Part shown: piece by piece, positions 12 to 63,403 of the stretch
Position numbering within the stretch: the first letter of the stretch is position 1
How the letters are laid out: each line of letters starts with the position of its first letter
DNA from: an uncultured Planctomycetia bacterium
Lineage (GTDB): Bacteria; Planctomycetota; Planctomycetia; Pirellulales; Pirellulaceae
Direction: 5' to 3'
Assembly: GCA_963714965.1 (NCBI GenBank)
Contig: CAVQQG010000001.1
Span: 1,480,653 to 1,544,652 of the forward strand
Length of the DNA: 64,000 nucleotides
Notes under the pieces: generated by a model
The model's database searches: none
The model's input: only the letters and a program-made list of their open reading frames with translations
What the model was told of the DNA's origin: nothing
Position numbers and translations under genes: made by a program

Positions 12-347
12 ATGTCGCCGATCGGGGAAGATGAATTTGTGGCCGACCTGGCAATCGACATCGGTTACCCGTTGCTGATCGTGGTACCCAATGTGCTGGG
101 ATGCATCAACTACACCATGCAAACCCTGATTGCGGCCGCCTGTTACCGCCAGGGAACTTCGGTCGCCGGTATTGTCATCACTTATCCGGAAGGGTTTGGA
201 GGGGATGTCAGCACGACCACCAACATAGAGGAAATCGCCAAACGCAGCGTGGCCCCGGTACTGGCCAGCGTCCCGTTTGGCGCTGACACGTTCGATCGCG
301 ACGTGGACTGGTTCGCCCTGGCCAGCACCCGGGGCCAGCTGGTATGA
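12..347 (+). CDS. bioD: dethiobiotin synthase-like ATPase (BioD family), C-terminal fragment truncated at the window edge
   Basis: Translation resembles the BioD C-terminal region (VVPNVLGCINYTMQTLIAA). The ORF runs off the 5' window edge. Its stop overlaps the next start (ATGA). Confidence 0.5.
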   Translation: MSPIGEDEFVADLAIDIGYPLLIVVPNVLGCINYTMQTLIAAACYRQGTSVAGIVITYPEGFGGDVSTTTNIEEIAKRSVAPVLASVPFGADTFDRDVDWFALASTRGQLV

Positions 348-877
348 GCTTTATCCGGTATGTCGCCTCCTCGGAAATTCCGGACGCCGACCGAGTCGAT
401 GACAACGACCGTATTATTCAGGTCCACGGCGTGCACAGCCGTTGTATGAAAATGCACCACCAGCTGTATGCCGAATTGATGCGCGGCCCTGGCCCCCTGA
501 CCCTGGTGCAACGCGAAATGGTGGCCACGGTCGTCTCGTCGATCAATCGTTGTCACTACTGAGTGATTCATCACGGGCGCGGTCTGCGCCGGCAACTGGT
601 CCAATCCGGAATGGATCCGGAGGCGGCCAACCAGCTGGCCGGACAACTGACCCGGGACGGGACGGCGGCGGCGCTGGCCGAAATGGACCGCGCCCTGCTG
701 GACTATGCAACACGGTTGACCCGCCAGCCGTGGTCCGTCACGAACGATCACGTCGAGGATTTGCGGCGGGCGGGACTGGACGATCGGGCCATCCATGATC
801 TGTGCGCGATTGTGGCCTACTATGCCTTTGCCAACCGGATTGCCAACGGACTGGGGATCGATGTTGAGACGGCATGA
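344..877 (+). CDS. AhpD-like peroxidase-related protein (carboxymuconolactone decarboxylase family) with an in-frame TGA at 560-562, candidate selenocysteine
   Basis: ORFs 344..562 and 563..877 are in the same frame, separated only by TGA. Joined they read VSSINRCHY-U-VIHHGRG, matching the family motif VSxxNgChYC..H with TGA at the second Cys. A hairpin with a GGUCU loop lies 14 nt downstream. Confidence 0.65.
576..590 (+). promoter_or_regulatory. candidate bacterial SECIS hairpin (5-bp GC stem, GGUCU apical loop) 14 nt after UGA-560
   Basis: ggcgc-ggucu-gcgcc seen directly in the sequence. The loop resembles the GGUC apical loop of the E. coli fdhF SECIS. Confidence 0.35.
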
Positions 878-26289: not shown

Positions 26290-26417
26290 TCGCAGCTGCG
26301 ATGGACGCTTGTCGCGCATGATCCGTTGTTCTGGCGTTGGCCAGGCGCCCCGGATAGAATGCCGTCGGTGTTTGTCACACGGCCGATGCCGGCATGTCTT
26401 TCGTTCTGTCCAGTACC

Positions 26418-27362
26418 ATGTCTGACTTTCGATACGATCCCTTTTTTGACCAATGGGTTTGTATCGCCGAGTCCCGTCAGCAACGACCCGTCGAATTTCG
26501 CCAGCAAAGCCAACGGCTGCCTGGTCTGGAATGTCCGTTCTGCCCCGGCAACGAACCCCTGACACCGCCGGCCCTGGCGCAGCACAACAGCTCGGACGGA
26601 TGGGTGGTCCGCGTGTTTCCCAACAAGTACCCGGCGCTGGGATCCGAAGGGCCGGAATCACACTCGTCCGATGCCGGTCAAATACCGCGCGGCTGCCAGG
26701 AAGTCATTGTGGTTTCGCCCCGGCACGTTGTTAGTCTGGCGGACCTGAATTCCGCAGAACTGCGGGCCAGCGCCGATATCTTTCGGCAACGACTGGCGGA
26801 ATACTGGTCGAATGCGGAGATTAACCACGCATCGCTGTTTATGAACTGCCGACCGGCTGCCGGCGCGTCGATTGAGCATGCGCATTTCCAGCTGATCGGT
26901 TCGCCGATCTGTACGCAACAAGTCCGCCAGCGAGTCAATCGCATGGTTCAGACAAGCAACGGTCAGTGCCGCTGGCAATCGGCCATTGACGAGGAACGGA
27001 CGGACGGAACCCGCGTGGTGGACGAGTCGGAAGAGTTTGTCGTGTTTTGTCCGAGAGCCAGTCGGTACACGGGCCAGCTGCGATTTGCCCGCCTTGGTTG
27101 CGGCTCGGTGCTGGACCTGGACACAACCCAGTTTGCCCAATTGGGAGAGATGCTCTCCCGCTGGACCCGGGTGGTCGAGCGGGTACTGGAACAGCCGGCC
27201 TACAACGTGGTCTTCTATTTGCCGCCCCGGGATTTGCCCGACGGGCCCTGGTTTGTTGATTTGATTCCCCGATTCCCGCAATTCGCCGGGTTTGAGCTGG
27301 CGACCGATTGCTGGGTGAACCCGTGGTCCCCCGAGTCTGCGGCGCAGCGATATCGAAACTGA
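26418..27362 (+). CDS. galactose-1-phosphate uridylyltransferase family (GalT-like HIT) protein
   Basis: CPFCPGNE zinc/HIT-family motif and a histidine-containing active-site region. Confidence 0.75.
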   Translation: MSDFRYDPFFDQWVCIAESRQQRPVEFRQQSQRLPGLECPFCPGNEPLTPPALAQHNSSDGWVVRVFPNKYPALGSEGPESHSSDAGQIPRGCQEVIVVSPRHVVSLADLNSAELRASADIFRQRLAEYWSNAEINHASLFMNCRPAAGASIEHAHFQLIGSPICTQQVRQRVNRMVQTSNGQCRWQSAIDEERTDGTRVVDESEEFVVFCPRASRYTGQLRFARLGCGSVLDLDTTQFAQLGEMLSRWTRVVERVLEQPAYNVVFYLPPRDLPDGPWFVDLIPRFPQFAGFELATDCWVNPWSPESAAQRYRN

Positions 27363-27582
27363 CGGCTCGTGGCCCGGCCGTGCGCCGAATGTGGCGTTCA
27401 GAAAAGATCTGGAGCAATACTCTCAAATCCGTTAGCATCACCTGCGGCGACCGGTTGCCAGGGCCTGCCGGCGGCTGGCAACGGTGCCACAACGACTTCC
27501 GATCCGCCCGCAACCCATCGGCTGGTCCGACGTCGAACGAAATAACGTTGGCTGGTTCTTTTCGCAAACCCTTGTCCATCGC

Positions 27583-29938
27583 ATGACCATGTCTGATCCC
27601 CGTTTGCGTTTCTGCCTGGCTCTGCACAATCATCAACCGGTCGGGAATTTTGACAACGTCATCCAGCAGGCCTGGCAAGACAGCTATCAGCCGTTTCTGG
27701 ATATGTTTGAATCGTATCCGTCACTGGCAATCAGCCTGCACACCAGCGGGCCCCTGATGCTCTGGCTGGAGAAAAACCGTCCCGAATACCTCGAGCGTTT
27801 GCGTGATTTGGCGCGGCGGGGCCGGATTGAGATCGTGGGGGGAGCGTTTTACGAACCCATCCTGACCATGATTCCCTCCCGGGACCGTCAGGGCCAGATC
27901 CGCCAGTATACCGACTGGCTGAACGAACGATTGGACGTCGATGTCCGCGGCATGTGGATTCCGGAACGGGTTTGGGAAGCCAGCCTGGTCAGCGACATTG
28001 CCGCCGCCGGAATTGAATACACCATTCTGGATGATTTCCATTTTCGCTGCGCCGGACTGGGAGACGAACAGCTGCACGGACATTACGTGACCGAAGACCA
28101 GGGTCACGTGCTCCGCGTCTTTCCGGGCAGCGAACAGCTGCGGTACATGATTCCGTTTCGGGAACCGCAGGAGACCATCGACTACTTGCGTTACCTGTCG
28201 GAAATTCACCCTGGCACAACGGTTGTGTTTGCCGACGACGGGGAAAAATTCGGCACGTGGCCGGAGACCCGCAAACATGTCTACGATGATCGGCTGGTTG
28301 TCCCGGTTTTTCGATGCTCTGGTGGCCCACGGCGATTGGCTCGAGTGCACGACCCTGAGTCAGGCGCTGGCCGGCAGCCTGCCGCAAGACAAGATCTTTC
28401 TGCCGGCGGCCAGTTATCGGGAAATGACCGAATGGTCGTTACCGGTCGAGCGACAACTGGAATACGAACACCTGCTGGCCGACATCCAGTCGGATGACCG
28501 CTGGCCGCGGATCCGGCAATTCATGCGCGGTGGTTTCTGGCGCAACTTCCGGAACAAGTATGCCGAGACCGACGAAATGTATGCCCGCATGATGCACGTC
28601 AGCAACCGCTTGCAGCAGCTGGCGGATGGCCCGGTGGGCCAACCCCGGCTGCTGGACCAGGCCCGGGACCATTTGTACCGCGGCCAGTGCAACTGTCCGT
28701 GGTGGCACGGTGCCTTTGGCGGTGTGTACCTGCCCCACCTGCGCAACGCCGCCTACCAGCATCTGATTCAGGCCGACAATTTGATCGATCAGGCCGCATC
28801 GCGGAGCGACGACGCCACGATCGAGGCCGCCGACTACAATTTTGACCTGACAGCGGAAATCCGTATGGCCAATCGTCATTTGATTGCCTGGTTTTCTCCG
28901 GCGCAGGGTGGTTACCTGTACGAGCTGGATATTCGGGGCATCACCCACAATTTGCTGGCCACCATGCAACGCCGCCGCGAGGCGTACCATGACAAGGTGC
29001 GGCTGGGGGCCAGCCAGGCCACCGGCGAGGCCGCCAGCATTCATGACCGCGTGGTGTTCAAGCAGGCCGGTCTGGATCAGCAACTGATCTACGACTCCCA
29101 TCCCCGCAAGAGCCTGGTTGATCATTTCTGGCCGCTGGATTGCACGCTGGCCGAGCTGCGTTCGGGCACGGCTCGCGAGCTGGGCGACTTTGTCAGCGGG
29201 CGATACGAATCCAAAATCCGTCGCAGTCCGTCGCGCAACCAGTTGTTGATGACACGCCACGGGACGGTCGAGGATTTGCCCATTCGGATCACCAAAGGGA
29301 TTACGCTTGGCAGTACCAGCAATACCCTGGAGGTGGCCTGGCTGCTGGAAGGATTGCCGCCGCAGCGCACGCTGAGATTCGGGGCGGAATTTAATTTTGC
29401 CGGGATGCCCGCCGGTGAACCCGACCGGTTTTTCACAGATGCCGCCGGCCAGCAACTGGGTTCCCTGGGCCAGGCCCTCGACCTGACCGATTGCACGGGC
29501 CTGTCGCTCAGCGATCAGTGGCTGGGCCTGATCGCCCGATTGACGTGGGACCGGCCTTCCGCAGTCTGGGCGTTTCCCGTGGCCACCGTCAGTCAATCCG
29601 AAGGCGGATTTGAACTGGTCCACCAATCGGTGGTCGTCCAGCCGGTTTGGCGGGTTCGGGGCGATGCAAACGGTCGCTGGGCGGTTAAAATGGAAATGCA
29701 ACTGGCGATTCCGACCGCCGAACCGGTGATCCCGGCACGCCCGGTGCCCCTGCCGCGACACAATGCCGAACCGATTGGTGAGCGAGGCTGGCCCCGGTCC
29801 AGCCCGGAAAATTCGCCCGTGGCCAGCAATTCGGTTGGTGACTTCTTCCCTGATTTTCTTGGCGTTCGCCGGCAACTCACATCGACGACCGCAACGAGTC
29901 CTGATCTGGCATGTCCCGTCGCCCGCAGCTACCGCTAA
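27583..29938 (+). CDS. GH57-family alpha-glucan-active enzyme (amylase / branching-enzyme-like), frameshifted near 28283
   Basis: LHNHQP and CNCPWWHGAFGG GH57 signatures. The N-terminal part (frame 1) and C-terminal part (frame 2, ORF from 28223) join as KHVYDD|GWLSRFF with a 1-nt slip. Confidence 0.75.
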
Positions 29939-46654: not shown

Positions 46655-47902
46655 ATGTTGAATCTGCTGTTGTTTGAAGATGCCCTGGTCGATGGCCTGG
46701 ATCCGGTCACCAGCGGCCGTCCGGCATGGGCGGTTTCCTGCGCCAGTTATCGACTGGTGGACCTCGTCAGCCGCTTGCCAGGAGTCGTGTCAAGCGTGGT
46801 TCGTCCTTTTTTGCGCGACGTGGTTGCTGCCGATTTCGGGGCAACCGTGGCGGGCATGGATGCGGCCCGGCCCTGGACTCTCTGCATCAACGCCCGCACC
46901 GCCCCGACCCTGGGCAATCTGCGTGTGTTGCGGGAACTTGGCGACCGGCAATCGCCGACGCATTGTAGGGACGGCCCCACATTGCAGGCCGCCCTGGTCC
47001 CGACGCCGCAGGCTGTCGCATGGACGCGGGATGTCAATTCGCTGGATGCCATGGCGGTTGTTCCGGCAACCAGCACCCCGCTGGACGGGTCACTGGAGTT
47101 GTTTGGGTATTTGCATGATTATGTACGCATCAACCGGCAGGCGTTTGTCGACAACCTGAATGACCGCTTGCAAACCGGTTCATGGCGCGAGGTCATGGAC
47201 GGCGTCTTTACCGACGACGCGGCCTGGAGTCCACCGGACTTCGTATCGCTGGACAGCCGCCAGGGACCCGTGCTGATCTCCCCGGGTGTTCAGCTGAAAC
47301 CCTTTGCCGCGCTGGCCGGCCCTTTGTTCATTGGTCCGGGCAACCGGATCGCCGCGCATTCCGCCATTCGCGAGTATGTGTCGACCGGAACCACTTGCAA
47401 ACTGGGCGGCGAGATCGAGGCCTCGGTCATTGAGAGCTACAGCAACAAGCAGCACTATGGATTTCTGGGGCACAGTTACCTGGGCAGCTGGATCAACCTG
47501 GGGGCCGGCACCTGTAACAGCGATCTGAAAAACACTTACGGGACCGTCAACATGCGGCGCGGGGGCGAACGGATTGCCACGAACCAGCAATTCGTCGGTT
47601 GCTTCATCGGGGACTACGCCAAAACCGCCATCAACACTTCAATCTTTACCGGCAAAACGATCGGTGTATGCAGCATGCTGTACGGGATCGCCTGTACGGA
47701 CGTCGCAGCGTTTACCAACCACGCCCAGTCACTGGGCCAGGTAACGGCCGTCGATCCACAGGTCATGGTGCAGACCCAGGCCCGGATGTTCCGGCGCCGC
47801 GGTGTCGAGCAACGCCACTGTGATCAGGAACTCATCTCGGCCATGTTTGACCGGACGGCGGGACAACGTCAGGGGCTACCGACCCGGCCCCTGGCCTGGT
47901 GA
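46655..47902 (+). CDS. DUF4954-family protein with a left-handed beta-helix (putative sugar-nucleotide transferase-like)
   Basis: Hexapeptide-repeat region in the C-terminal half. Confidence 0.65.
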   Translation: MLNLLLFEDALVDGLDPVTSGRPAWAVSCASYRLVDLVSRLPGVVSSVVRPFLRDVVAADFGATVAGMDAARPWTLCINARTAPTLGNLRVLRELGDRQSPTHCRDGPTLQAALVPTPQAVAWTRDVNSLDAMAVVPATSTPLDGSLELFGYLHDYVRINRQAFVDNLNDRLQTGSWREVMDGVFTDDAAWSPPDFVSLDSRQGPVLISPGVQLKPFAALAGPLFIGPGNRIAAHSAIREYVSTGTTCKLGGEIEASVIESYSNKQHYGFLGHSYLGSWINLGAGTCNSDLKNTYGTVNMRRGGERIATNQQFVGCFIGDYAKTAINTSIFTGKTIGVCSMLYGIACTDVAAFTNHAQSLGQVTAVDPQVMVQTQARMFRRRGVEQRHCDQELISAMFDRTAGQRQGLPTRPLAW

Positions 47903-48041
47903 ACGGTGCCGGACAGAGCGCTGTGACGAAGTATCAGTACGAGGGCAAGCCGGTTCCCGCAGCAACCATTCATCCGGTAGAATACCGGTCGGCACGTTCC
48001 GCGTGAGCGGCTGTTCCTTCCTGACGTTTTGGTTTGCTGCC

Positions 48042-48938
48042 ATGTCCTCGCGTTCGTTTTTTTCGGGTAACCGGTCGGCCTTGTCGTTTGAGTTGTTTCC
48101 GCCCCGCACCCCGGCCGGAGTTCGCTCGCTGTATCGCCACGTACAGGAGTTGATGGCGTTCGCTCCCGATTTTATTACGTGCACTTATGGTGCCGGCGGA
48201 TCGACACGTGACAAGACGCTGGAAATCGTCGGTAATATCAAAAGCCGTTTCAATATCCCGGTGGCCTCTCACCTGACGCTGGTGGATGCCTCGCGCGAAG
48301 AGCTGGCCCGCTATCTGGACGAGGCACGACATCTGGGAGTGGACCACATCGTCGCACTCCGCGGTGATCCGCCGTCGGGTCGTGGATATTTCCAGGCGGC
48401 GCCTGGCGGTTTTCGGTATGCCAACGAACTGGTATCGCTGATTCGTAGCGAGTTTCCCGAATTCGGCATCGCCGTTGCCGGCTATCCGGAAACTCATCAG
48501 GAAGCACCCAGCCCCGACATCGATCTGGAAAATCTGAAACGCAAGGTCGACGCGGGGGCAGATATCGTGATCACCCAGCTGTTTTACGACAATCAGGACT
48601 TTTTTCGATTTCGCGACCGGTGCCAGGCGGCCGGAATCCCGGTCCCCATCATTCCCGGGCTGCTGCCGGTGCTGAGCCTGCACCAGGTCAGAAAAATCAC
48701 GGCATTGTGCGGGGCCAGCCTGCCCAGGGCGTTCGCCCGCCGGTTGCTGGAAAAACCGGACGATACCGGTTGGCAAATGCAGGTGGGAATCGAACAGGCA
48801 ACCCGCCAGGCCAGCGAGCTGTTGTCAGAATCGGTCGCAGGATTACACTTTTACGTGCTGAACAAGTCCGAATCCACGGCCGCCATCCTGTCCTCGCTGG
48901 AAAATCTCGGACTGGGTGTGTCAAACCGTGGCGGTTGA
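48042..48938 (+). CDS. metF: 5,10-methylenetetrahydrofolate reductase
   Basis: Full-length similarity to MetF (FELFPP, TCTYGAGG, LRGDPP). Confidence 0.85.
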   Translation: MSSRSFFSGNRSALSFELFPPRTPAGVRSLYRHVQELMAFAPDFITCTYGAGGSTRDKTLEIVGNIKSRFNIPVASHLTLVDASREELARYLDEARHLGVDHIVALRGDPPSGRGYFQAAPGGFRYANELVSLIRSEFPEFGIAVAGYPETHQEAPSPDIDLENLKRKVDAGADIVITQLFYDNQDFFRFRDRCQAAGIPVPIIPGLLPVLSLHQVRKITALCGASLPRAFARRLLEKPDDTGWQMQVGIEQATRQASELLSESVAGLHFYVLNKSESTAAILSSLENLGLGVSNRGG

Positions 48939-48983
48939 TGGCCCGGGTGCGGACGGTTTTGCCCTGTTACCATTTGGGAATGT

Positions 48984-49424
48984 TTGACTGCCAGTCTCCC
49001 CTGCAATCCGGTTCGCGCGATGTTTGAAAGTACTCTGGATTGGTTGCCGTTTCTGGTCGCAGGCGGTGTATTGGTGACCGTTTGGCTGGTGTTGCGGAAC
49101 AAGGCGACGGCCCTGAATTCGACCGCTGAGTTTGACCGGCATATTGGGCGTGGCAAACCGGTTGTGTTGAAATTTTTTGCCAATACGTGAGGCCGGTGCC
49201 TGGCGTCCACGCCCATCGTGAATGGGATCGAACAGGACTTGCAGGGTCAGGCGGATGTGGTTCGCATCAACAAGTTGACGAGTCTGGGCCGGGAACTGGC
49301 CCGGCGTTACGATGTCACATCGGCCACGACCACGCTGGTGCTCGACAAGGACGGAACGGTCATCTATCGCCATGCGGGGTTGCCCAGTCGCAGCCAGGTC
49401 GTCGAAGCCGTTCAATCCGCCTGA
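48984..49424 (+). CDS. membrane-anchored thioredoxin-like protein with an in-frame TGA at 49188-49190 replacing the first Cys of WCxxC; candidate selenoprotein
   Basis: ORFs 48984..49190 and 49218..49424 share one frame with no stop other than TGA. The joined protein reads VVLKFFANT-U-GRCLASTPIVNGI...TTTLVLDKDGTV, which matches the thioredoxin fold (DFWAEWCGPCKMIAPI...PTLLLFKNGEV). Confidence 0.6.
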
Positions 49425-49526
49425 GCGCTGTCGCCATTCGGCTCTAGGTGATGCCGGCGGCCAGCTGAACGCTCAATTCGCGAATGCGTCCAACCATCGA
49501 ATACAGGCCATTACGCCGATTCGGGC

Positions 49527-49892
49527 TTAAATGCTGGTTGAGCCCCAGCGCGCAAAAAAATCGGCCGGATCCACCGCAATGGACTCTTCCGGAGTTTTCC
49601 CCTGATACAACGAGAGCAGGATCACGATCAGGCCCTTGACGATCAGTGAGTCACTGTCGGCGTAAATGCTAATCGGTTGACCGGCCGTATCATCGGGCGA
49701 TTGCGGTTCTATCGCCAGCCAGACAGTGCTCATACAGCCCTGGACCTTGTTGGCCTCGGTTTGGTAACGGCTGTTCAGGGGAGGAAGCTCGCGCCCCAGG
49801 TCGAGCAGGAATTCGTATTTGTCTTGCCAGTCCTGCAAGTCCTCAAAAGTATCCCGGATCTCGTCCTGGCTGGGGGGAAACGGGTCGCTCAT
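49527..49892 (-). CDS. sufE: cysteine desulfuration protein SufE
   Basis: VQGCMSTVWL active-site motif; about 120 aa. Confidence 0.8.
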   Translation of the reverse strand: MSDPFPPSQDEIRDTFEDLQDWQDKYEFLLDLGRELPPLNSRYQTEANKVQGCMSTVWLAIEPQSPDDTAGQPISIYADSDSLIVKGLIVILLSLYQGKTPEESIAVDPADFFARWGSTSI

Positions 49893-50040
49893 CGGGCCAT
49901 AACCGGATTGACAGACACTGGTTTGAAAATCGGGAACATCACGCCCCGCTTGACTAATGCTAGTCGCCTGGCGTCCAAAAGAAAACGGCCGTTGCCGGAA
50001 TACGCGGCCTGTCACGCCCTGATCCGGATTGCGCCGGCAT

Positions 50041-51113: not shown

Positions 51114-51965
51114 TCAGGCAGCCGCCCGCCAACCATTCTGGATGGGCAGCCGCGTGTTGAGGGCCTGCATTTCGCTGACTTCCCGGGCCAACGCCCGGTA
51201 ATCTTCCGCGCCATGGGAATCCGGGGCGTATTCCAGAATGGACTGACCAAAACCTGGTGCCTCGGCCAGCCTGATATTTTTGCGAATCCGCGATTCAAAG
51301 ACCCGGGCGCCCGCCCAAACCGTTCGCTGCATCCGTTCTCTCTGAAAAAACTCCTCCACGTCTCCCATGACTTCGCCTGCCAGTCGGGTTCCGGATTCCA
51401 CCATACAGTACAGGACGCCGCTCAGGCTTAATTCGCGATTCAGGCGCTTGGCGACGATATCGATGGTCTTCAGCAATTTGCTGAGTCCGTGCAGGGCAAA
51501 GAAGTGCGGCTGCAACGGCAGAAATACCTCCGTCGCGCAGGTTAATGCATTGGTCGTCAGGATTCCCAGTGACGGAGGACAGTCGAGAATCACATAATCA
51601 AAACAGGCGGCGTCTTCCGACAGGCGATCGCGCAATATCATTTCGCGACCCACCTCTCCGGCCAACTCCATTTCGGCGGCCGCCAGATCCAGATGCGAGG
51701 GAGTGACCCACAGATTGTCACAAGCCCGCATACGAACGTCGCCAATGGGTTGCTGGCCGGTCATTACCTGATAGATCGAACTTTCGCCGTCCAGAACGGT
51801 CAGCCCCAGATGGAGTGACGCATGGGCCTGGGGATCCAGATCAATCAACCAGACGCGTTGACCGGTGGACGCCAGCGCGGATGCCAGGTTGACGGCTGTG
51901 GTCGTTTTGCCAACCCCCCCCTTTTGATTAATGATGGCGATCGTGCGTGTCTGGACCGGTCCCAT
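51114..51965 (-). CDS. parA: ParA/MinD-family partition ATPase
   Basis: Deviant Walker A KGGVGKTT. Confidence 0.85.
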   Translation of the reverse strand: MGPVQTRTIAIINQKGGVGKTTTAVNLASALASTGQRVWLIDLDPQAHASLHLGLTVLDGESSIYQVMTGQQPIGDVRMRACDNLWVTPSHLDLAAAEMELAGEVGREMILRDRLSEDAACFDYVILDCPPSLGILTTNALTCATEVFLPLQPHFFALHGLSKLLKTIDIVAKRLNRELSLSGVLYCMVESGTRLAGEVMGDVEEFFQRERMQRTVWAGARVFESRIRKNIRLAEAPGFGQSILEYAPDSHGAEDYRALAREVSEMQALNTRLPIQNGWRAAA

Positions 51966-52347
51966 GCGAAACTCCTTTTTCTGACAGGCCGCAACGCGCG
52001 GCAAACGGGCTCGGGAGTATACAAGTGACCGGCTGATACTCACCAGACGAGTTTTGCCAGCTTTCCGTCATCGGCCGGCAGCGGGCCAGGGACCGCCATT
52101 TCGATCGGGCTGTTTTCAGGAAGACATAGACCAGCGCGAACCCCACCAGGGGCGTAATCCACCATGAGGGGGCGATCGCGGCCACTTCGAACAATCGCAG
52201 GCTGGAGTCGATCGTGGCCGCCATGGCCAGACATCCCGCTGCCAGCCAGATCCAGTGGCCCGCGCGGGCCCACCGCGTCAGACAGGCCAGGGCCACCCGC
52301 AAATAAATGAACGCCGTTAGCGGATACAACAGAAACAGCAGCTCCAT
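51928..52347 (-). CDS. small membrane protein, possibly a truncated or frameshifted MsrQ-like partner of MsrP
   Basis: Start overlaps the msrP stop (ATGA). Three hydrophobic helices, then a non-membrane tail overlapping parA. Confidence 0.3.
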   Translation of the reverse strand: MELLFLLYPLTAFIYLRVALACLTRWARAGHWIWLAAGCLAMAATIDSSLRLFEVAAIAPSWWITPLVGFALVYVFLKTARSKWRSLARCRPMTESWQNSSGEYQPVTCILPSPFAARCGLSEKGVSHGTGPDTHDRHH

Positions 52348-55566: not shown

Positions 55567-58089
<2,523 letters not shown>

Positions 58090-58108
58090 TCAGCGGGATG
58101 GCCGGGTA

Positions 58109-58495
58109 TCAGGTTCGAATGGTTCCGACCCGGAATCGCAGGGCCCGAATCCCGGCGTTGGGCAATGCCTCACGGATTTGTTGCAGCAGTTGAGCTTTTT
58201 CGAATCCCAATTGTTGCAACGCCGGCGAACTGTCGACGATGATTTCCAGGATACCCCGTCGAATCAGGGTGGCCTGCGTTTTGCCGGCATACCGGGCACC
58301 GGTCACTTTTTGCCAGGCAGCCTGCAATTCATCCTGGAACAACTCCTGGGTAAATCCGCGCCGCGAAATCAGCTTGCTGAGCAGTTCGGCCGAGGATTTG
58401 GGTTTGCGTTCGAATCGGCGGCGGCTTTCAAACTGCTCCATTGCCCGCCGGTCACCGTCCTGATCGTCATCGTAAATAGTCATGGTCCGGTTCAA
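58109..58495 (-). CDS. DUF721 domain protein (DciA-like), typical of the dnaN-gyrB locus
   Basis: Position and size. Its stop overlaps the dnaN stop region. Confidence 0.65.
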   Translation of the reverse strand: MNRTMTIYDDDQDGDRRAMEQFESRRRFERKPKSSAELLSKLISRRGFTQELFQDELQAAWQKVTGARYAGKTQATLIRRGILEIIVDSSPALQQLGFEKAQLLQQIREALPNAGIRALRFRVGTIRT

Positions 58496-59610
58496 CGGCG
58501 ATCCCGGGACAACGGCATGATGACATAACCGTACTTGTCATCCGTTTGACAGTAGGCGGCCTGTTCGCCGTTTTCCACGTCAAACGTAAATGACTTGTCC
58601 GGCTGCAGGACTTTCAGGAAATCCGCCACATAGCGGTGGTCCAGCGTGATCGTAATCTCTTCCTTGTCGTCATAGGCGATGGGCAATTCGATCCGCGACT
58701 GTCCCACTTCGGCCGTGCTGTTGGACAACACCAGGGAGCCGTTCTTGAACGTGAAATCCACACCCCGGCTTTCCTCACTGGCCACAATCGCCGCCTGCCG
58801 GAGGGCCGAATACATCGGACCGACGGGCAAGTCGATTTTGCTGGAATCGACCCGCTGGGGCAGCACTTCGCGCCATTTGGGAAACCGGCCTTCGACCAGC
58901 CGGGTGTAAAACACACCGTTTCGGTGCCTGACCAGCAGTTCGTTTTCACGAGGCGCGAACTGGACCGGTTCGTCACCCGCCGGAATCGTTCGTTCAATCA
59001 GTTGCATGGCTCGCGAGGGCACGATGGTGGTTTGGCCGGCGGCGGGATGGCCGTGGACCGTCACCGGGGCTTCCATCTTGGCCAGTCGCCGTCCATCGGT
59101 GCCCACCGCGGTCAAGATCTGATCGTTGACCTCCAGCAGAACACCACTCAACGCATAGCGGCTGCTCTCGGCGTCGGTCGCAAACAACGTCCGCTTGATC
59201 AACTCCCGCAATACGCCGGCCGGCACCTCATAGTAATCTTCGTCCGTGAAATCGACGACATCGGGGAATTCGTCCGGGTTTTGGCCCTGCAGTTCAAACC
59301 GCGATTGTTTGCCGGTTACCAGAATCTTGCTGGCGTCGGCCGTGATTTCCAGCTGCTCGTCAGCGGACTCGCGAAGAATGGCATTCAGCCGGGTGACAGG
59401 AATCACGGCCGCGCCCGGACTGTGCACCTGGACATCTTGCACCGATATACGGACACCCACTTCCATGTCCGTGGCGGTCAGTCGAACCGAATCACCGGCC
59501 GCTTCCAGTTTCACATTCTGCAAAATGGTCTTGGGACTGCGGGCCGGCGCGACGATGGCTGCGATTTGAAAAATCTGGGCAAATGGTTCACGCTTGATGG
59601 TAATTTTCAC
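58492..59610 (-). CDS. dnaN: DNA polymerase III beta sliding clamp
   Basis: Three-domain clamp similarity; VKITIKRE N-terminus (GTG start). Confidence 0.9.
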   Translation of the reverse strand: MKITIKREPFAQIFQIAAIVAPARSPKTILQNVKLEAAGDSVRLTATDMEVGVRISVQDVQVHSPGAAVIPVTRLNAILRESADEQLEITADASKILVTGKQSRFELQGQNPDEFPDVVDFTDEDYYEVPAGVLRELIKRTLFATDAESSRYALSGVLLEVNDQILTAVGTDGRRLAKMEAPVTVHGHPAAGQTTIVPSRAMQLIERTIPAGDEPVQFAPRENELLVRHRNGVFYTRLVEGRFPKWREVLPQRVDSSKIDLPVGPMYSALRQAAIVASEESRGVDFTFKNGSLVLSNSTAEVGQSRIELPIAYDDKEEITITLDHRYVADFLKVLQPDKSFTFDVENGEQAAYCQTDDKYGYVIMPLSRDRR

Positions 59611-59640
59611 GGAGTTTGACTTTCTGTTTTTCCGAACCAA

Positions 59641-59976
59641 CGGAGGAGTGGACCGGTCAACCAGTTGACCAGTTCATAAAACAAAACATGTATTCAGCAG
59701 TAGTAACAGTGTTCCGGACAAAATGTTGAATGCCGGTCTGACAGATCAAAAAACAACGGGTTTCATGAGGCCGATGATCGCGTGACGGCGGGGAAAACAT
59801 GTTGAAGCCCTGGTATTCCTGTGTTATCGGACTTTCAATCGCGTGTTAATCCATGGTCCGGGGAGAGCGATTTGTTGGAATCCGGGGCCAGACGGACAAA
59901 CAGCAACAATACATCAACAGGTTCTCCGGCGGGTGACAGTCGTTTACTTCCACAGCTGGTCAGGAGTCAGGTATCT
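59641..59976. other. candidate oriC: low-GC dnaA-dnaN intergenic spacer
   Basis: Clearly AT-richer than the flanks. Imperfect DnaA-box-like 9-mers (e.g. TTCCACAGC, TGTTATCGG). Sits between dnaA and dnaN. Confidence 0.4.
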
Positions 59977-61164
59977 TCAAGGGGCAAGCCGTTTCTCCAG
60001 TTTCTGCCGCAACAAATCCAGTGCTTCGCCGAGCGCAGGATCGGTGCCGCGTTGTGCGGCAATCACGCGGCAGGCATGACGGATCGTGGACGCATCGCGC
60101 TGGCCCAACAGCTGGCCAATCCGGGAAAATCCCGCCGAAAACTCGACCCGCGCCAGCCAGGCCACCACGCTGCGGGCCCGAACCAGTGGCCGTTGGCGAC
60201 CGGGCCCGGTCAGGTCGCTGACCCGCAATCGAAAATGGCGAGCGACCATCTTCAACAGAATCGCGAAATGCCGCGGATCCATTTCGGGACGGACGTGCTG
60301 CAACAGATTTTCCAGCCGGCGTCGCGGAATGTGCGTCGGGCAACCGGCGTTATCGATTGCCAATCGCGACAAGGCCCGACAAATGAGCGGGACTGAGCGG
60401 GGCAACGTGTCGACCAGCCATTCCAGATCCGGAGGATCGATGTTCAGGTCCAGTCGCTCAAGCAATTGCTCGACCAGCCTGGACCGGGCCGCTCGTCCCG
60501 GCGGCTGCACCGAAATCGACAATCCGGCCGACAAGCGGGATCGTAATGGCTGGGGTAACGCGTGATCGGCAAACGGGGCCGTCAGCATCGTGACCAGGAC
60601 CGGGCGTTGCCGCTGGTTGAACTGGTCCAGCAACTGGGTCCATTCCCGAGCGAGTGCGGAGTGGTTGGCCGGCAGCGTCAAATCATCCACCAGCAGCGTG
60701 TCATACGCCACAAGGTGCTCGTGGAACTGTGCCAGCGACCGCGTCGCACAGGCCTTGCGAAATTCACGAGCAAACTCCGTGCCTGATGTTCGCAGCCAGC
60801 GGCCCGGCAACCGGCGAACCAGCAGCTCGGCCAAAGTCGTCTTGCCCACACCCGAGGGGCCATACAAAACCAGTGGCCAGCGGACACCCGGAATTTCCGC
60901 CGTTGTGCCGCGACGGGTAACCGATTCCGAACACCATAACTGTAACAGGGGGTTGGATTGATCCGCGTAATAACGATTCAGCAGAAACGGGCCGGCAGGC
61001 GTTTGCGGTTGACCAACGACCAAACTCCGCTGGTCCGTGAGCGGGCCCGTGGACCAGCCGGGACCGTCGCGCAAGGGGATCGCAGGAAATGAAAAAACAG
61101 CTGCCGACACGGATTCCGAAATCCAACTGAAGATGACGTTCAGACGCCCGCCAAACCGCCCCAC
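59977..61164 (-). CDS. dnaA: chromosomal replication initiator DnaA (divergent N-terminus)
   Basis: AAA+ Walker A LYGPSGVGKTTL. C-terminal domain-IV helix-turn-helix (RPLVRARSVVAWLAR...). Confidence 0.8.
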   Translation of the reverse strand: MGRFGGRLNVIFSWISESVSAAVFSFPAIPLRDGPGWSTGPLTDQRSLVVGQPQTPAGPFLLNRYYADQSNPLLQLWCSESVTRRGTTAEIPGVRWPLVLYGPSGVGKTTLAELLVRRLPGRWLRTSGTEFAREFRKACATRSLAQFHEHLVAYDTLLVDDLTLPANHSALAREWTQLLDQFNQRQRPVLVTMLTAPFADHALPQPLRSRLSAGLSISVQPPGRAARSRLVEQLLERLDLNIDPPDLEWLVDTLPRSVPLICRALSRLAIDNAGCPTHIPRRRLENLLQHVRPEMDPRHFAILLKMVARHFRLRVSDLTGPGRQRPLVRARSVVAWLARVEFSAGFSRIGQLLGQRDASTIRHACRVIAAQRGTDPALGEALDLLRQKLEKRLAP

Positions 61165-61237
61165 CGGGGCTCGGGAGGCCGTCCCGTTCGGGAACGGATT
61201 CTAACATTTTTTGCCCCCGGCAACGAGGTGCAAAAGC

Positions 61238-62443
61238 CTAATTTCTTCCGCTTTTTCCTCGACGTAAATGCTTGACGGCATTGATGATACGATTCGCAGC
61301 CTGGACGCTTTCGGCCGGCGTGTTCTGGCGGCTGAAACTGATCCGCAGGGAACTGCTGATCACCCGCGATTCCAGGCCCATGGCTTGCAAGACATGGGAT
61401 GGTTCGCTGGATCCGCTGGCGCATGCCGAACCGGTCGATATCGCCAGGCCCGCCATATCACAGGCCAGCATCAGCGGCTGTCGTTCGACGGCTGGAATGC
61501 CGGAATTACCCGGAAATGCGATATTGGAACAATGCGGGGCCCGGGGTCCGGCCCCACCGTTGATTCGGCAGTCGGGCAGGCCGGCCCCAACAGCTTCCTC
61601 GAACGCATCGCGCAGTGACTGCAAATAGTGGGGGTTGGTTGCCAGATGCGTGTCCGCCAGCATCAGGGCCTCGGCAAATCCAACCGCCAAAGCCACATCT
61701 TCGGTTCCCGGCCGCAAGCCCAGTTGCTGAAAGCCGCCAAATAACAGGGGCGTCAATTCGCGATGCGATCCACTGAGCACCAGGGCCCCAATGCCTCGCG
61801 GCCCATGCAATTTGTGGGCCGTCAGACTCAACGCCGTAACCCCGGCGGCCGCCAGCTCCCGGAAACGAACCGGTATTTTGCCAACCGCCTGAACGGCATC
61901 GCAGTGCATGGGGATATTCCGCCGCGCGCAAATCCGGGCGGCTTCGGCAACCGGCTGAATATTGCCGGTTTCGTTATTAACCATCATCAAACTGACCAAC
62001 CGGGTTCGCTCGTCGAGCAACCGGGGCAGCACGTCCAGGCGAGCACATCCCTGCGAATCGACCGGCAACCGGCGGACCTCCCATCCGCGTGAGCCGAGAA
62101 CGGAGACGGCCGTCAATATGCTGGGATGCTCGATCGTGGAAACCACAATGTTCGGCCGCTGCGGTTCCGTGTGAACCGCCAGCCCTCCCCGACACCAGCC
62201 CAGCAACGCCAGGTTGTTGGCCTCGGTACCACCACTGGTGAAGATCAACCGGTCATCCGGCCCCAGGTCAAGCCGCTCGCCTATTTGATGACGAGCCTGC
62301 TCCAGCCGCGCCGCGGCCTGTTGACCCGGTCGATGCTGGCTGGCCGGATTGACATAGCCCGCCCGGTAACACGCGATCATCGCCTCGCCAACCAGCGGGT
62401 CCAGTCGGGTCGTCGAGCAGGCATCCAGGTAAATCGGGTTCAT
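61238..62443 (-). CDS. cysteine desulfurase (NifS/IscS family, PLP-dependent)
   Basis: Lysine region SLTAHKLHGP and C-terminal active-site Cys loop STGSACASG. Confidence 0.85.
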   Translation of the reverse strand: MNPIYLDACSTTRLDPLVGEAMIACYRAGYVNPASQHRPGQQAAARLEQARHQIGERLDLGPDDRLIFTSGGTEANNLALLGWCRGGLAVHTEPQRPNIVVSTIEHPSILTAVSVLGSRGWEVRRLPVDSQGCARLDVLPRLLDERTRLVSLMMVNNETGNIQPVAEAARICARRNIPMHCDAVQAVGKIPVRFRELAAAGVTALSLTAHKLHGPRGIGALVLSGSHRELTPLLFGGFQQLGLRPGTEDVALAVGFAEALMLADTHLATNPHYLQSLRDAFEEAVGAGLPDCRINGGAGPRAPHCSNIAFPGNSGIPAVERQPLMLACDMAGLAISTGSACASGSSEPSHVLQAMGLESRVISSSLRISFSRQNTPAESVQAANRIINAVKHLRRGKSGRN

Positions 62444-62662
62444 CAATCCTACAGGGCCGGGTGCTGAGGAGTCCGGAAACAGGTGCCCGTCGTGTCCCGG
62501 TGGAACAAGACAGTGTAGGCGCCAGTCCGTCAAAAACCAGCTGTTTTGACGCTGCCCAACGGTCTTGCTGCAACGGCCCGGCTTTTTCATACTGCCGGAA
62601 TCCCCAATGATATCCTGCGGCTGATTGCCAGGACGACCGACTTGCCCCCATAGTATCCCCTA

Positions 62663-63403
62663 ATGCAGATCCCGGAAAACCAACGCGATGAACCGGAAAA
62701 CGATTCGGCGCTGCCGGACCGTGCGGTGCTGGAGGGATTGTCCGAACAGCATCGGGTGGAAGCGGTCCTGTTTCTGGCCCGCGAACCGCTGGGCAGTCGC
62801 AAGCTGGCGCAGCTGGCCGGATTATCCGACGGGACGCGAGCCCGGTCGCTGGTCCGGCAACTTAATCGGCACTACGACGAGGTGGGACGGGCCTTTAACG
62901 TTCAGCAAGTCGCCGGCGGATTTCAAATGCGGACGCGTCCCGCCTTCAGCACCTGGTTAACCCGGCTGAAACATGCCCCCGGGGCAATCCGCCTGACTGC
63001 GCCGGCACTGGAAACCCTGGCGGTGGTCGCCTATCGACAACCGGTTCGGAAAGCCGATATTGAAGCCGTCCGCGGAGTGAGTTGCGGGGATTTGTTGCGT
63101 CAACTGCTGGATCAGGGTATCGTGCGCATCGCCGGACGCAGCAGCGAATTGGGGAATCCGTACCTTTATGGAACGACCCGACGGTTTTTGGAGATTTTCG
63201 GACTCGCGAATCTGGATGCCTTGCCGCGGGCCGAGCAGCTGCGAGGCAGCGGGTTGCCGGCCCCGGCCCAACCGGAAAACCCGGCCGCGAAACCCTCGAA
63301 ACCACTCGACGAATCCGATGACAGGCCCCAAAATCTAGAGCTTGTCAGGGACCCACATTCCACACTCGATGTACTCCAGCAAAACAGCCTCCAGGAGGAG
63401 TAA
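62663..63403 (+). CDS. scpB: segregation and condensation protein B
   Basis: Tandem winged-helix ScpB domains. Confidence 0.85.
   Translation: MQIPENQRDEPENDSALPDRAVLEGLSEQHRVEAVLFLAREPLGSRKLAQLAGLSDGTRARSLVRQLNRHYDEVGRAFNVQQVAGGFQMRTRPAFSTWLTRLKHAPGAIRLTAPALETLAVVAYRQPVRKADIEAVRGVSCGDLLRQLLDQGIVRIAGRSSELGNPYLYGTTRRFLEIFGLANLDALPRAEQLRGSGLPAPAQPENPAAKPSKPLDESDDRPQNLELVRDPHSTLDVLQQNSLQEE

What the first reader, a model, noticed from the sequence alone, without database searches (positions are those of the whole stretch)
48984..49424. Thioredoxin-fold gene with UGA replacing the first Cys of WCxxC: second candidate selenoprotein
ORFs 48984..49190 and 49218..49424 are co-framed with no intervening stop except TGA at 49188-49190. 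The read-through product is VVLKFFANT-U-GRCLASTPIVNGI ... TTTLVLDKDGTVIYRHAG. This aligns with the thioredoxin motif and fold (vlvDFWAeWCGPCkmiaPi ... ptlllfkdGevv), and an N-terminal TM helix suggests a membrane-anchored periplasmic Trx-like protein. Two independent redox-motif UGAs in one 64-kb window argue for real Sec usage rather than chance. sufE and a NifS-like cysteine desulfurase (possible Sec lyase / Se donor) are nearby at 49527 and 61238.
Basis: partly seen in the sequence, partly recalled or inferred. Interest (0 to 1): 0.75.

Follow-up and report, generated by a model that had tools for sequence, protein, structure and literature searches.

The report
Membrane-anchored thioredoxin-like selenoprotein gene
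The two small ORFs are one gene for a membrane-anchored thioredoxin-like protein whose first active-site cysteine is almost certainly selenocysteine, read from an in-frame UGA with the help of a small conserved RNA hairpin; this kind of protein is already known, so it is a solid but fairly ordinary finding.

Summary
ORFs 48984/49020..49190 and 49218..49424 share one frame and are separated only by TGA at 49188-49190. The read-through product (134 aa from ATG 49020) is one thioredoxin-fold domain behind an N-terminal hydrophobic helix.

The TGA aligns with the first Cys of CxxC in solved thioredoxins/PDIs and in full-length Cys homologues (FYSNT-C-SIC). An exhaustive protein search found about 97 of 130 relatives as short fragments that start just after this codon. 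A synonymous-codon-neutral DNA scan of metagenomes returned 120 loci: 118 have TGA there and 2 have TGC.

A hairpin 24-38 nt after the UGA (CCC-RUC-GUG-RAY-GGG; window 49212-49226) is conserved, with one covarying pair (A-U 59, G-C 31, G-U 5, none unpaired). GGG and CCC are used at 96-97% there against 20-34% elsewhere in the same genes. It meets the published bacterial SECIS criteria and is absent from the Cys forms.

TGA is a normal stop in this genome. A second gene (344-877, AhpD-like, CxxU) shows the same logic. The host is Pirellulaceae-like.

Not shown: the Sec machinery (none in the window) and membrane topology. Verdict: a real selenoprotein gene, a new member of a known kind.

The parts
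49020..49424 (+). Complete gene for the thioredoxin-like selenoprotein (134 codons including Sec, stop TGA 49422-49424)
   Evidence: Translation. Pfam PF00085 spans the TGA. ATG 49020 is used by gene callers and matches homologue N-termini.
49044..49094 (+). N-terminal hydrophobic segment LPFLVAGGVLVTVWLVL (predicted membrane anchor)
   Evidence: Read directly from the sequence. It aligns with the single or second hydrophobic segment of full-length homologues. Topology is not determined.
49188..49190 (+). In-frame UGA read as selenocysteine, first residue of the U-G-R-C redox motif
   Evidence: It aligns with the first Cys of CxxC in Cys homologues and PDB thioredoxins. TGA is present at this codon in 118 of 120 metagenomic loci and in L003 and L006.
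49197..49199 (+). TGC, the resolving Cys of the UxxC motif
   Evidence: This position was fixed as TGY by the search pattern, so its invariance is not independent evidence. It is conserved independently in the protein-derived hits (MPC/MGC fragments and CxxC in the Cys forms).
49212..49226 (+). SECIS upper stem-loop CCCAU-CGUGA-AUGGG (5 bp, 5-nt loop with GU at loop positions 2-3), 21 nt after the UGA; encodes P-I-V-N-G
   Evidence: Conserved in 95-119 homologues; 96.8% of cells paired. Pair +27/+35 covaries: A-U 59, G-C 31, G-U 5, none unpaired. Site-specific codon bias. Absent from Cys forms. Unique in the window.
49205..49238 (+). Extended hairpin including a lower stem (GUCC...GGAC, CG...CG), MFE -8.0 kcal/mol
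   Evidence: The lower stem is specific to this window and is not conserved in homologues.
344..877 (+). Companion AhpD-like (peroxidase-related, CxxU) selenoprotein gene; Sec UGA at 560-562, hairpin GGCGC-GGUCU-GCGCC at 576-590
   Evidence: TIGR01926 scores 110.1 bits against a cut-off of 81.8. Fold. This supports Sec decoding in this organism.

Best explanation
Window 49020-49424 is a single gene for a small (133-residue mature length) membrane-anchored thioredoxin-fold thiol:disulfide oxidoreductase with active site U-G-R-C.

The proposed mechanism is as follows. UGA at 49188-49190 is recoded to selenocysteine. When the ribosome reaches it, the Sec-specific elongation factor SelB, carrying Sec-tRNA(Sec), binds the mRNA hairpin 21 nt downstream (CCCAU-CGUGA-AUGGG, 49212-49226, loop G-U exposed). 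It delivers Sec in competition with release factor 2. The product would cycle between selenolate/thiol and a selenenylsulfide (Se-S) bond while reducing or exchanging disulfides of partner proteins at the membrane.

Shown here: one reading frame and one Trx domain across the UGA; the Sec/Cys pair with homologues; strong conservation of TGA across a large family; and a conserved hairpin that covaries at one base pair, is constrained at synonymous codon positions, meets the published bSECIS rules and is missing from Cys forms.

Inferred: that this Pirellulaceae-like genome has selA/selB/selC/selD; that Sec is actually inserted; the redox function; and that the domain faces the periplasm. The last point is suggested by two-helix paralogue subfamilies with a strongly positive inter-helix loop, and by signal-peptide or lipoprotein relatives.
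For: (1) The frame and domain are continuous.

(2) Cys homologues have C exactly where the window has UGA: P0041 FYSNTCSICLVSKP, P0067 FYTNTCTSCLLARP, P0032, P0034 and P0040.

(3) An exhaustive HMMER search with the 77 aa after the UGA gave 130 hits. About 97 are 57-100 aa proteins whose match starts at their residue 1-4, several beginning M-x-C-L. This is the signature of genes cut at this codon by gene callers. DNA of L003 and L006 confirms TGA in frame.

(4) A metagenome scan with TGH-N6-TGY-N12-CCN-RTN-GTN-RAY-GGN-NTN-GAR returned 118 TGA and 2 TGC.

(5) Hairpin evidence. Free third-codon positions are +26 C 113/119 and +38 G 113/119. The R27/Y35 table is A-U 74, G-C 38, G-U 6, A.C 1 (Fisher p = 1.4e-23). 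The formal count gives 96.8% paired against 31-64% for slid controls, and RNAalifold recovers the same stem. GGG is 97% at the hairpin Gly against 20% at other Gly codons of the same genes; CCC is 96% against 34%.

(6) Four Cys-form genes and the TGC locus L059 lack the hairpin.

(7) The bSECIS rules in PMC13188914 are met. These are a 3-9 nt loop, a 4-16 bp stem, G in loop position 1-2 followed by G/U, 16-37 nt spacing and MFE <= -7.5. The window has a loop CGUGA, a 5 bp stem, 26 nt spacing and -8.0 kcal/mol.

(8) TGA is the ordinary stop of 12 of 22 Pfam-supported genes in the window, so this is not a reassigned code.

(9) A second CxxU gene in the window has a GGUCU-loop hairpin 18 nt after its UGA.

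(10) Planctomycetes with full Sec machinery, and with split 'thiol-disulfide isomerase-like thioredoxin' Sec candidates, are reported in PMC4807772. GyrB places the window near Pirellulaceae/Mariniblastus.
Against: No selA, selB, selD or tRNA-Sec lies in the 64 kb: ARAGORN and Rfam find only tRNA-His and tRNA-Gly, and Pfam scans of about 40 ORFs find none. The rest of the genome could not be read.

The hairpin is small and, taken alone, no more stable than shuffled sequence (z -0.36; z +0.2 to +1.0 for larger segments). The support for it is comparative only.

Only one of the six stem pairs covaries, and two of them (C25-G37, U28-A34) were fixed by the search pattern.

The window protein has Thr where 106 of 115 homologues keep the cis-proline of the thioredoxin fold, so its activity may be altered.

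The closest syntenic relative (GyrB 86% identical) has no such gene between sufE and MTHFR.

The window carries at least one probable homopolymer frameshift nearby, in sufE, so the sequence is not error-free.
Confidence: 0.88

Rival explanations
1. Relic or pseudogene. The gene descends from a selenoprotein, but this organism no longer decodes Sec. Translation then stops at 49190 and yields only a 56-aa membrane peptide.
For: No Sec machinery is visible in the window. The cis-Pro is replaced by Thr. The gene is missing at the syntenic site of the nearest relative, which shows it is dispensable in the lineage.
Against: Both halves remain open. The hairpin matches the family consensus at every constrained position. 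Family-invariant residues downstream are kept: G69, I70, E71, R82, G90, G120, P122. A second intact UGA-containing gene with its own hairpin is in the same window. Other 50%-identity cluster representatives also lack the Pro (P0005, P0007, P0009), so that change is not unique decay.
Confidence: 0.07
2. Nonsense mutation or sequencing/assembly error of an ordinary Cys codon (TGC/TGT to TGA) in a normal CxxC thioredoxin-like gene.
For: The window has a likely homopolymer indel in sufE 360 nt away. A single-base change is enough to make TGA.
Against: The same stop position is called in two other assemblies of the organism. 118 of 120 homologous loci carry TGA. The SECIS hairpin, which the Cys forms lack, is intact here.
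Confidence: 0.02
3. Two independent small genes, as annotated by gene callers: a 56-aa membrane peptide and a 68-aa protein starting at GTG 49218.
For: Automated calls list them separately. Many database entries are such fragments.
Against: A single Pfam or PDB thioredoxin alignment spans both. A Trx fold cannot form from the 68-aa piece, which lacks the active site and beta1-alpha1. The GTG 'start' lies in the loop of the conserved hairpin. Cys homologues are single proteins.
Confidence: 0.02
4. UGA is read through without Sec (near-cognate Trp or Cys insertion, or a reassigned code), giving a WxxC or CxxC protein.
For: Low-level UGA read-through is common in bacteria (general knowledge). Sec insertion itself was not tested.
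Against: TGA terminates 12 of 22 well-supported genes here, including this one. A conserved hairpin with SECIS geometry would be unexplained.
Confidence: 0.01

Closest known systems
Sec-containing thioredoxin / thioredoxin-like selenoproteins (PF00085, UxxC) listed in prokaryotic selenoproteome surveys (Sargasso Sea, PMC1088965; review PMC13188914)
   Same: Thioredoxin fold, Sec at the N-terminal position of the CxxC motif, Cys-containing homologues, and a SECIS hairpin inside the coding region just after the UGA.
   Different: This family has an N-terminal membrane helix (one or two), a non-WCGPC active site (x-U-x-x-C-L) and no dedicated NCBIfam model. It scores 48.8 against a cut-off of 96.8 on TIGR01068, so it is not a canonical TrxA. 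The window copy lacks the cis-Pro.
'Thiol-disulfide isomerase-like thioredoxin' selenoprotein candidates of planctomycete P1 from Porphyra (PMC4807772, S9 Table)
   Same: Planctomycete host, annotated as two adjacent genes split at UGA, closest hit a Cys homologue.
   Different: Their sequences could not be compared here, so identity of family is unproven. That study reported no SECIS with bSECISearch, whereas a conserved covarying hairpin is found here.
Membrane-anchored periplasmic thiol:disulfide oxidoreductases TlpA / ResA / CcmG (DsbE)
   Same: N-terminal anchor plus one Trx-fold domain with a CxxC-type site; a possible extracytoplasmic reductant role.
   Different: Model scores are far below the cut-offs: TlpA 12.2/230, DsbE 26/123, ResA 21.8/170. 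No recurrent CcdA/DsbD or cytochrome-maturation neighbours appear. Orientation is untested.
Omp28-related selenoprotein / GOS_C (NF045500)
   Same: It shares the UxxC site and the same hairpin-encoding A/K-P-I-V-D-G-L-E segment (L008, L088, L119).
   Different: These are long secreted proteins with a W-U-G-P-C motif, a signal peptide and C-terminal sorting domains. That is a different architecture.
E. coli fdhF SECIS
   Same: A hairpin in the coding sequence downstream of the UGA with G-U exposed in the apical loop (general knowledge).
   Different: The element here is much shorter (5-6 bp upper stem), has no bulged U, starts 21 nt after the UGA and has a different sequence.

Membership tests
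Bacterial selenoprotein gene (Sec-UGA + bSECIS) | In-frame UGA aligned with a Cys in homologues (Sec/Cys pair) | tested here: met
   C in P0041, P0067, P0032, P0034, P0040 and in PDB thioredoxins/PDI at the UGA position.
Bacterial selenoprotein gene (Sec-UGA + bSECIS) | UGA-containing homologues in other organisms, with coding conservation on both sides | tested here: met
   TGA in L003, L006 and 118 of 120 metagenomic loci. The best homologue, L036, is 55% identical over 120 aa spanning the UGA.
Bacterial selenoprotein gene (Sec-UGA + bSECIS) | bSECIS model: 3-9 nt loop, 4-16 bp upper stem, G in the first two loop positions followed by G/U, 16-37 nt between UGA and loop, MFE <= -7.5 kcal/mol (PMC13188914) | tested here: met
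   Loop CGUGA, 5 bp stem, 26 nt spacing, -8.0 kcal/mol for 49205-49238. Checked by hand and with ViennaRNA; bSECISearch itself was not run.
Bacterial selenoprotein gene (Sec-UGA + bSECIS) | RNA-level selection on the hairpin (covariation, synonymous constraint), absent in Cys forms | tested here: met
   Only one of the six pairs varies on both sides.
Bacterial selenoprotein gene (Sec-UGA + bSECIS) | selA, selB, selC (tRNA-Sec) and selD present in the genome | not testable with these tools
   None in the 64-kb window. The 2.25-Mb contig could not be read. Indirect support comes from a second Sec-type gene in the window and from Sec-using Planctomycetes in the literature.
Bacterial selenoprotein gene (Sec-UGA + bSECIS) | Selenium actually incorporated | not testable with these tools
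   This needs 75Se labelling or mass spectrometry.
Thioredoxin fold (Pfam PF00085) | Score above Pfam gathering threshold over the whole domain | tested here: met
   37.5 bits against 23.5, residues 34-131.
Thioredoxin fold (Pfam PF00085) | cis-Proline loop opposite the active site | tested here: not met
   The window has S-A-T-T-T where PDIA4 has Y-P-T and 106 of 115 homologues have P-[TSAM].
Canonical thioredoxin TrxA (TIGR01068) | Equivalog score cut-off and WCGPC motif | tested here: not met
   48.8 bits against 96.8. The motif is T-U-G-R-C.
TlpA / ResA / DsbE (CcmG) periplasmic reductases | Family model cut-offs | tested here: not met
   TlpA 12.2/230, DsbE 26/123.15, ResA 21.8/170.
TlpA / ResA / DsbE (CcmG) periplasmic reductases | N-terminal anchor with the Trx domain outside the cytoplasm | tested here: inconclusive
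   The hydrophobic helix is present. Family-wide charge bias weakly favours domain-out, and the two-helix subfamily has a positive loop of about 3 K/R. The window's own flanks are ambiguous (acidic N-terminus, R-N-K after the helix).
AhpD-like peroxidase-related selenoprotein (TIGR01926), companion gene 344-877 | Model cut-off and CxxU motif | tested here: met
   110.1 bits against 81.8; the motif is C-H-Y-U.

The most novel reading that the evidence does not exclude
The window gene belongs to a large and apparently uncurated family of membrane-anchored UxxC thioredoxin-like proteins in which the selenocysteine form is the rule rather than the exception. About 75% of 50%-identity clusters, and 98% of motif-matched metagenomic loci, carry the Sec form.

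Its SECIS is an unusually compact, sequence-conserved 15-nt hairpin (CCC-RUC-GUG-RAY-GGG) that doubles as the codons for P-[IV]-V-[DN]-G of helix alpha1. Other Trx-fold selenoprotein architectures share it (GOS_C/Omp28-related, a lipoprotein form). If so, it would be a minimal, portable 'active site plus SECIS' module. It would also explain why bSECISearch reported no SECIS for planctomycete thioredoxin-like candidates.
Probability: 0.3. Interest if true: 0.5.

Novelty: new member of a known kind. Interest (0 to 1): 0.33.

Why it matters
The practical consequence is an annotation fix. Two 'hypothetical' ORFs of 56 and 68 aa should be merged into one selenoprotein gene. The same error affects on the order of a hundred database clusters of 57-100 aa fragments.

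It marks this Pirellulaceae-like organism as a probable selenocysteine user with at least two redox selenoproteins.

The family-wide hairpin shows an RNA signal shaping protein sequence. It forces CCC and GGG codons and couples an Ile/Val choice to the synonymous third base of the Asp/Asn codon two codons further on. Its consensus is short enough to use as a search pattern or as a minimal SECIS for engineering tests.

It does not change what is known about how selenoproteins work.

Tried and rejected
(1) The word-indexed homologue search with the read-through protein found nothing, and a later profile search found only 9 hits. The exhaustive search was needed.

(2) The genome-contig scan found only two distant thioredoxins and not the source genome.

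I replaced them with a degenerate DNA pattern.

Only the 77 aa after the UGA were used.

(5) Single-sequence folding gives no significant stability for any segment.

(6) Rfam has no matching family.

(7) The neighbourhood analysis gave only lineage-specific synteny: EF-G-like and methyltransferase genes in one subfamily, and endonuclease IV, cupin, TrxA and TrxB-like genes in another. There was no CcdA/DsbD and no SufE. The TrxA/TrxB-like proximity in five loci each is noted but not interpreted.

Taxonomy rests on GyrB neighbours.

(9) Structure prediction was not run, because the read-through sequence is not accepted by that tool and the Pfam and PDB alignments already settle the fold.

Full report
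OBSERVATION. The region reads as the first-stage reader said. From ATG 49020 (or TTG 48984) to the stop at 49422-49424 there is one open frame. It is broken only by TGA at 49188-49190...GRGKPVVLKFFANT-TGA-GRCLASTPIVNGIEQDL.... With the TGA read as Cys, Pfam Thioredoxin (PF00085) matches residues 34-131 as one stretch across the TGA (37.5 bits, cut-off 23.5). phmmer against PDB sequences aligns 'kffantCgrC' with 'efyapwCghC' of PDIA4 and with the CGPC of many thioredoxins. The UGA therefore sits exactly at the nucleophilic first Cys of the CxxC motif. Residues 9-25 (LPFLVAGGVLVTVWLVL) form a hydrophobic helix.

Gene callers on two read-set assemblies of the same organism split the gene into 56 aa + 68 aa at the same coordinate. 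The stop is therefore not peculiar to this assembly. I could not read the DNA of those two contigs, and the runs may be the reads the genome itself was assembled from.

IS IT A STOP, AN ERROR OR A SEC CODON? TGA is the ordinary stop codon of 12 of 22 Pfam-supported genes in the window, including this gene's own terminator. The genetic code is therefore standard, and any read-through must be site-specific.

The word-indexed homologue search found nothing. An exhaustive HMMER search with the 77 residues after the TGA gave 130 hits. About 97 of them are 57-100 aa proteins whose match begins at their residue 1-4. Several start M-P-C-L, M-G-C-L or M-C-L, one or two residues before the resolving Cys. 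That is the footprint of a family that gene callers systematically cut at this codon.

The roughly 33 longer hits include full-length homologues with an N-terminal helix and a Cys at the UGA position. Examples are P0041 (EFYSNT-C-SIC-LVSKP), P0067 (FYTNT-C-TSC), P0032, P0034, P0040, P0047 and others. DNA for two fragment hits shows the predicted arrangement: L003 has ...FFSNG TGA ATG CCA TGC..., and L006 has ...FFTNT TGA GTG GGC TGC....

I then scanned metagenome contigs with a back-translated pattern that allowed TGA, TGC or TGT at the critical codon and every synonymous codon elsewhere (TGH-N6-TGY-N12-CCN-RTN-GTN-RAY-GGN-NTN-GAR-N6-YT). Almost all show the same architecture of helix(es), x-U-x-x-C and a Trx domain ending 75-85 residues later. 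The best match to the window protein, L036, is 55% identical over 120 residues spanning the UGA.

THE RECODING SIGNAL. In 119 distinct sequences aligned in register, the segment +24 to +38 from the T of TGA reads CCC-RUC-GUG-RAY-GGG. The search pattern left several positions free, and these behave as a hairpin requires.
- The third base of the Pro codon is C in 113/119 (U in 5).
- The third base of the Gly codon is G in 113/119.
- The first base of the Ile/Val codon covaries with the synonymous third base of the Asp/Asn codon. The counts are A-U 74, G-C 38, G-U 6 and A.C 1 (Fisher p = 1.4e-23).

On a 95-sequence alignment the named helix is 96.8% paired, against 31-64% when the 3' arm is slid. 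The covarying pair is A-U 59, G-C 31, G-U 5, with none unpaired. RNAalifold independently returns the same stem and nothing else.

Codon usage shows the constraint is local. GGG is 97% at the hairpin Gly but 20% at the other 1,492 Gly codons of the same genes. CCC is 96% against 34%.

Four Cys-form genes (L127, L128, L130, L131) and the TGC locus L059 cannot form this hairpin. The other TGC locus, L111, keeps only a weakened version.

In the window the element is CCCAU-CGUGA-AUGGG at 49212-49226, and it is unique in the 64 kb. It meets each criterion of the consensus bacterial SECIS model quoted in PMC13188914.
- Loop of 3-9 nt: 5 nt here.
- Upper stem of 4-16 bp: 5 bp here.
- G in loop position 1-2 followed by G/U: C-G-U-G-A here. 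In most homologues this is C-G-U-G-G, with C and G pairing as the model's N1/N2.
- Spacing of 16-37 nt from the UGA to the loop: 26 nt here.
- MFE <= -7.5 kcal/mol: -8.0 for 49205-49238 with its window-specific lower stem.

One caveat applies. Taken singly, the hairpin is no more stable than shuffled sequence (z -0.36; searches agree). All the weight is on the comparative evidence, and only one pair shows two-sided change.

The GTG 'start' of the second ORF (49218) is the loop of the real element.

CONTEXT. The window is chromosomal DNA that includes the dnaA-dnaN-gyrB-parA cluster. The nearest named GyrB relatives are Pirellulaceae and Mariniblastus MAGs at 72-75% identity. Homologue locus L003 sits next to planctomycete-specific PSCyt/PSD1 genes.

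No Sec machinery is in the window: there are only tRNA-His and tRNA-Gly, and about 40 ORFs scanned show no SelA/B/D domains. The rest of the 2.25-Mb contig was out of reach.

Indirect support for Sec decoding comes from a second gene, 344-877. This is an AhpD-like protein with C-H-Y-U, whose UGA lies at 560-562. It passes NCBIfam TIGR01926 (110 against 81.8 bits), a family listed among predicted CxxU selenoproteins. It has a GGCGC-GGUCU-GCGCC hairpin whose loop starts 18 nt after the UGA. Planctomycetes with complete selA/B/C/D sets, and with split 'thiol-disulfide isomerase-like thioredoxin' Sec candidates, have been reported (PMC4807772).

No SufE or MTHFR neighbour occurs in 40 homologous loci. 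In the closest syntenic relative (L132, GyrB 86%), sufE and MTHFR abut with 23 nt between them and no Trx-like gene. The gene is thus patchily distributed even among close relatives.

FUNCTION AND MECHANISM. Shown: this is a Trx-fold domain with U-x-x-C, tethered by a hydrophobic helix. Inferred: it is a thiol:disulfide oxidoreductase cycling through a selenenylsulfide, with Sec inserted by SelB bound to the hairpin.

Location is uncertain. Subfamilies with two helices have a strongly basic inter-helix loop (about 3 K/R), which would put the domain outside. Relatives with signal peptides or lipoprotein signals exist (L008, L066). The window's own flanks, however, are ambiguous (acidic N-terminus, R-N-K after the helix).

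It is not a canonical TrxA, and it is not a TlpA, ResA or DsbE by model scores. No NCBIfam model is specific to it.

The window copy is unusual in having Thr where 106 of 115 homologues keep the cis-proline. A few other cluster representatives also lack the proline.

COMPARISON AND NOVELTY. Sec-containing thioredoxins and Trx-like UxxC proteins, AhpD-like CxxU proteins and coding-region bacterial SECIS hairpins are all established categories (PMC1088965; PMC13188914). This gene is a new member of that kind.

Three things may be new at family level. The Sec form predominates. The family has no curated model. Its 15-nt SECIS is very compact and sequence-conserved, is shared with the GOS_C/Omp28-related architecture, and visibly dictates the P-[IV]-V-[DN]-G peptide. 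I could not establish whether specialists have already described this, and I give it about a 0.3 chance of being unrecognised.

VERDICT. Confidence that this is a real selenocysteine-encoding gene is about 0.88. The main residual alternative is a relic gene in a genome that has lost Sec decoding. Interest is modest: the result is a correct annotation fix with a clean comparative case, not a new kind of system.

Noticed in passing
window 49527-49892 (- strand), A-run at 49554-49560: sufE appears frameshifted near its 3' end. The canonical C-terminus LGLNQHLSPNRRNGLYSMVGRIRE continues in another frame after a 7-A homopolymer. Logan assemblies of the same organism call a 149-aa SufE and are offset by 1 nt between here and 50141. 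This is probably a homopolymer sequencing error in the window, or else a real pseudogene.
   Followed up: partly
window 344-877 (+), UGA 560-562, hairpin 576-590: AhpD-like / peroxidase-related gene with a C-H-Y-U motif. The read-through product passes TIGR01926, and a GGCGC-GGUCU-GCGCC hairpin has its loop 18 nt after the UGA. This is a second probable selenoprotein gene. TGA conservation in its homologues was not checked.
   Followed up: partly
L132:16393-17774 compared with window 47802-49900: In the closest syntenic relative (GyrB 86% identical), sufE and MTHFR are convergent neighbours 23 nt apart with no thioredoxin-like gene. The selenoprotein gene was therefore gained in the window's lineage or lost in the relative.
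   Followed up: partly
window 49326-49334 (codons for A-T-T in TSATTTLVL): The window protein has Thr where 106 of 115 family members have the cis-proline of the thioredoxin fold. From general knowledge, replacing the cis-Pro of DsbA with Thr traps substrate complexes, so activity may be altered.
   Followed up: partly
L008, L017, L029, L079, L088, L119; L066: Long secreted marine proteins (W-U-G-P-C, weak match to NF045500 Omp28-related selenoprotein / GOS_C) and a lipoprotein-type Trx (FATW-U-PTC) carry the same hairpin-encoding P-I-V-D-G-L-E segment after their UGA. The Sec site plus SECIS is thus shared across different architectures.
   Followed up: partly
window 55567-62590 (- strand) and 51114-52043: Replication-origin neighbourhood: dnaA-like (59977-61164), dnaN (58492-59640), gyrB (55567-58029) and parA-like (51114-52043), with a NifS-like aminotransferase (61238-62590) and scpB (62663-63403) alongside. 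The same order occurs in relatives L132-L134.
   Followed up: no
L051, L057, L074, L075, L116 (about 500-900 nt upstream of the family gene); L037, L045, L047, L073, L117: In one subfamily (FYSNT-U) a classical WCGPC thioredoxin lies just upstream in 5 loci and a thioredoxin-reductase-like flavoprotein lies within 0.4-4.5 kb of the family gene (upstream in four of the five loci). This may be a functional link or only lineage synteny.
   Followed up: no
window 24793-29938: Glycogen/starch metabolism cluster: starch synthase-type glycosyltransferase, GalT-like, GH57, and alpha-amylase/4-alpha-glucanotransferase C-terminal domains.
   Followed up: no
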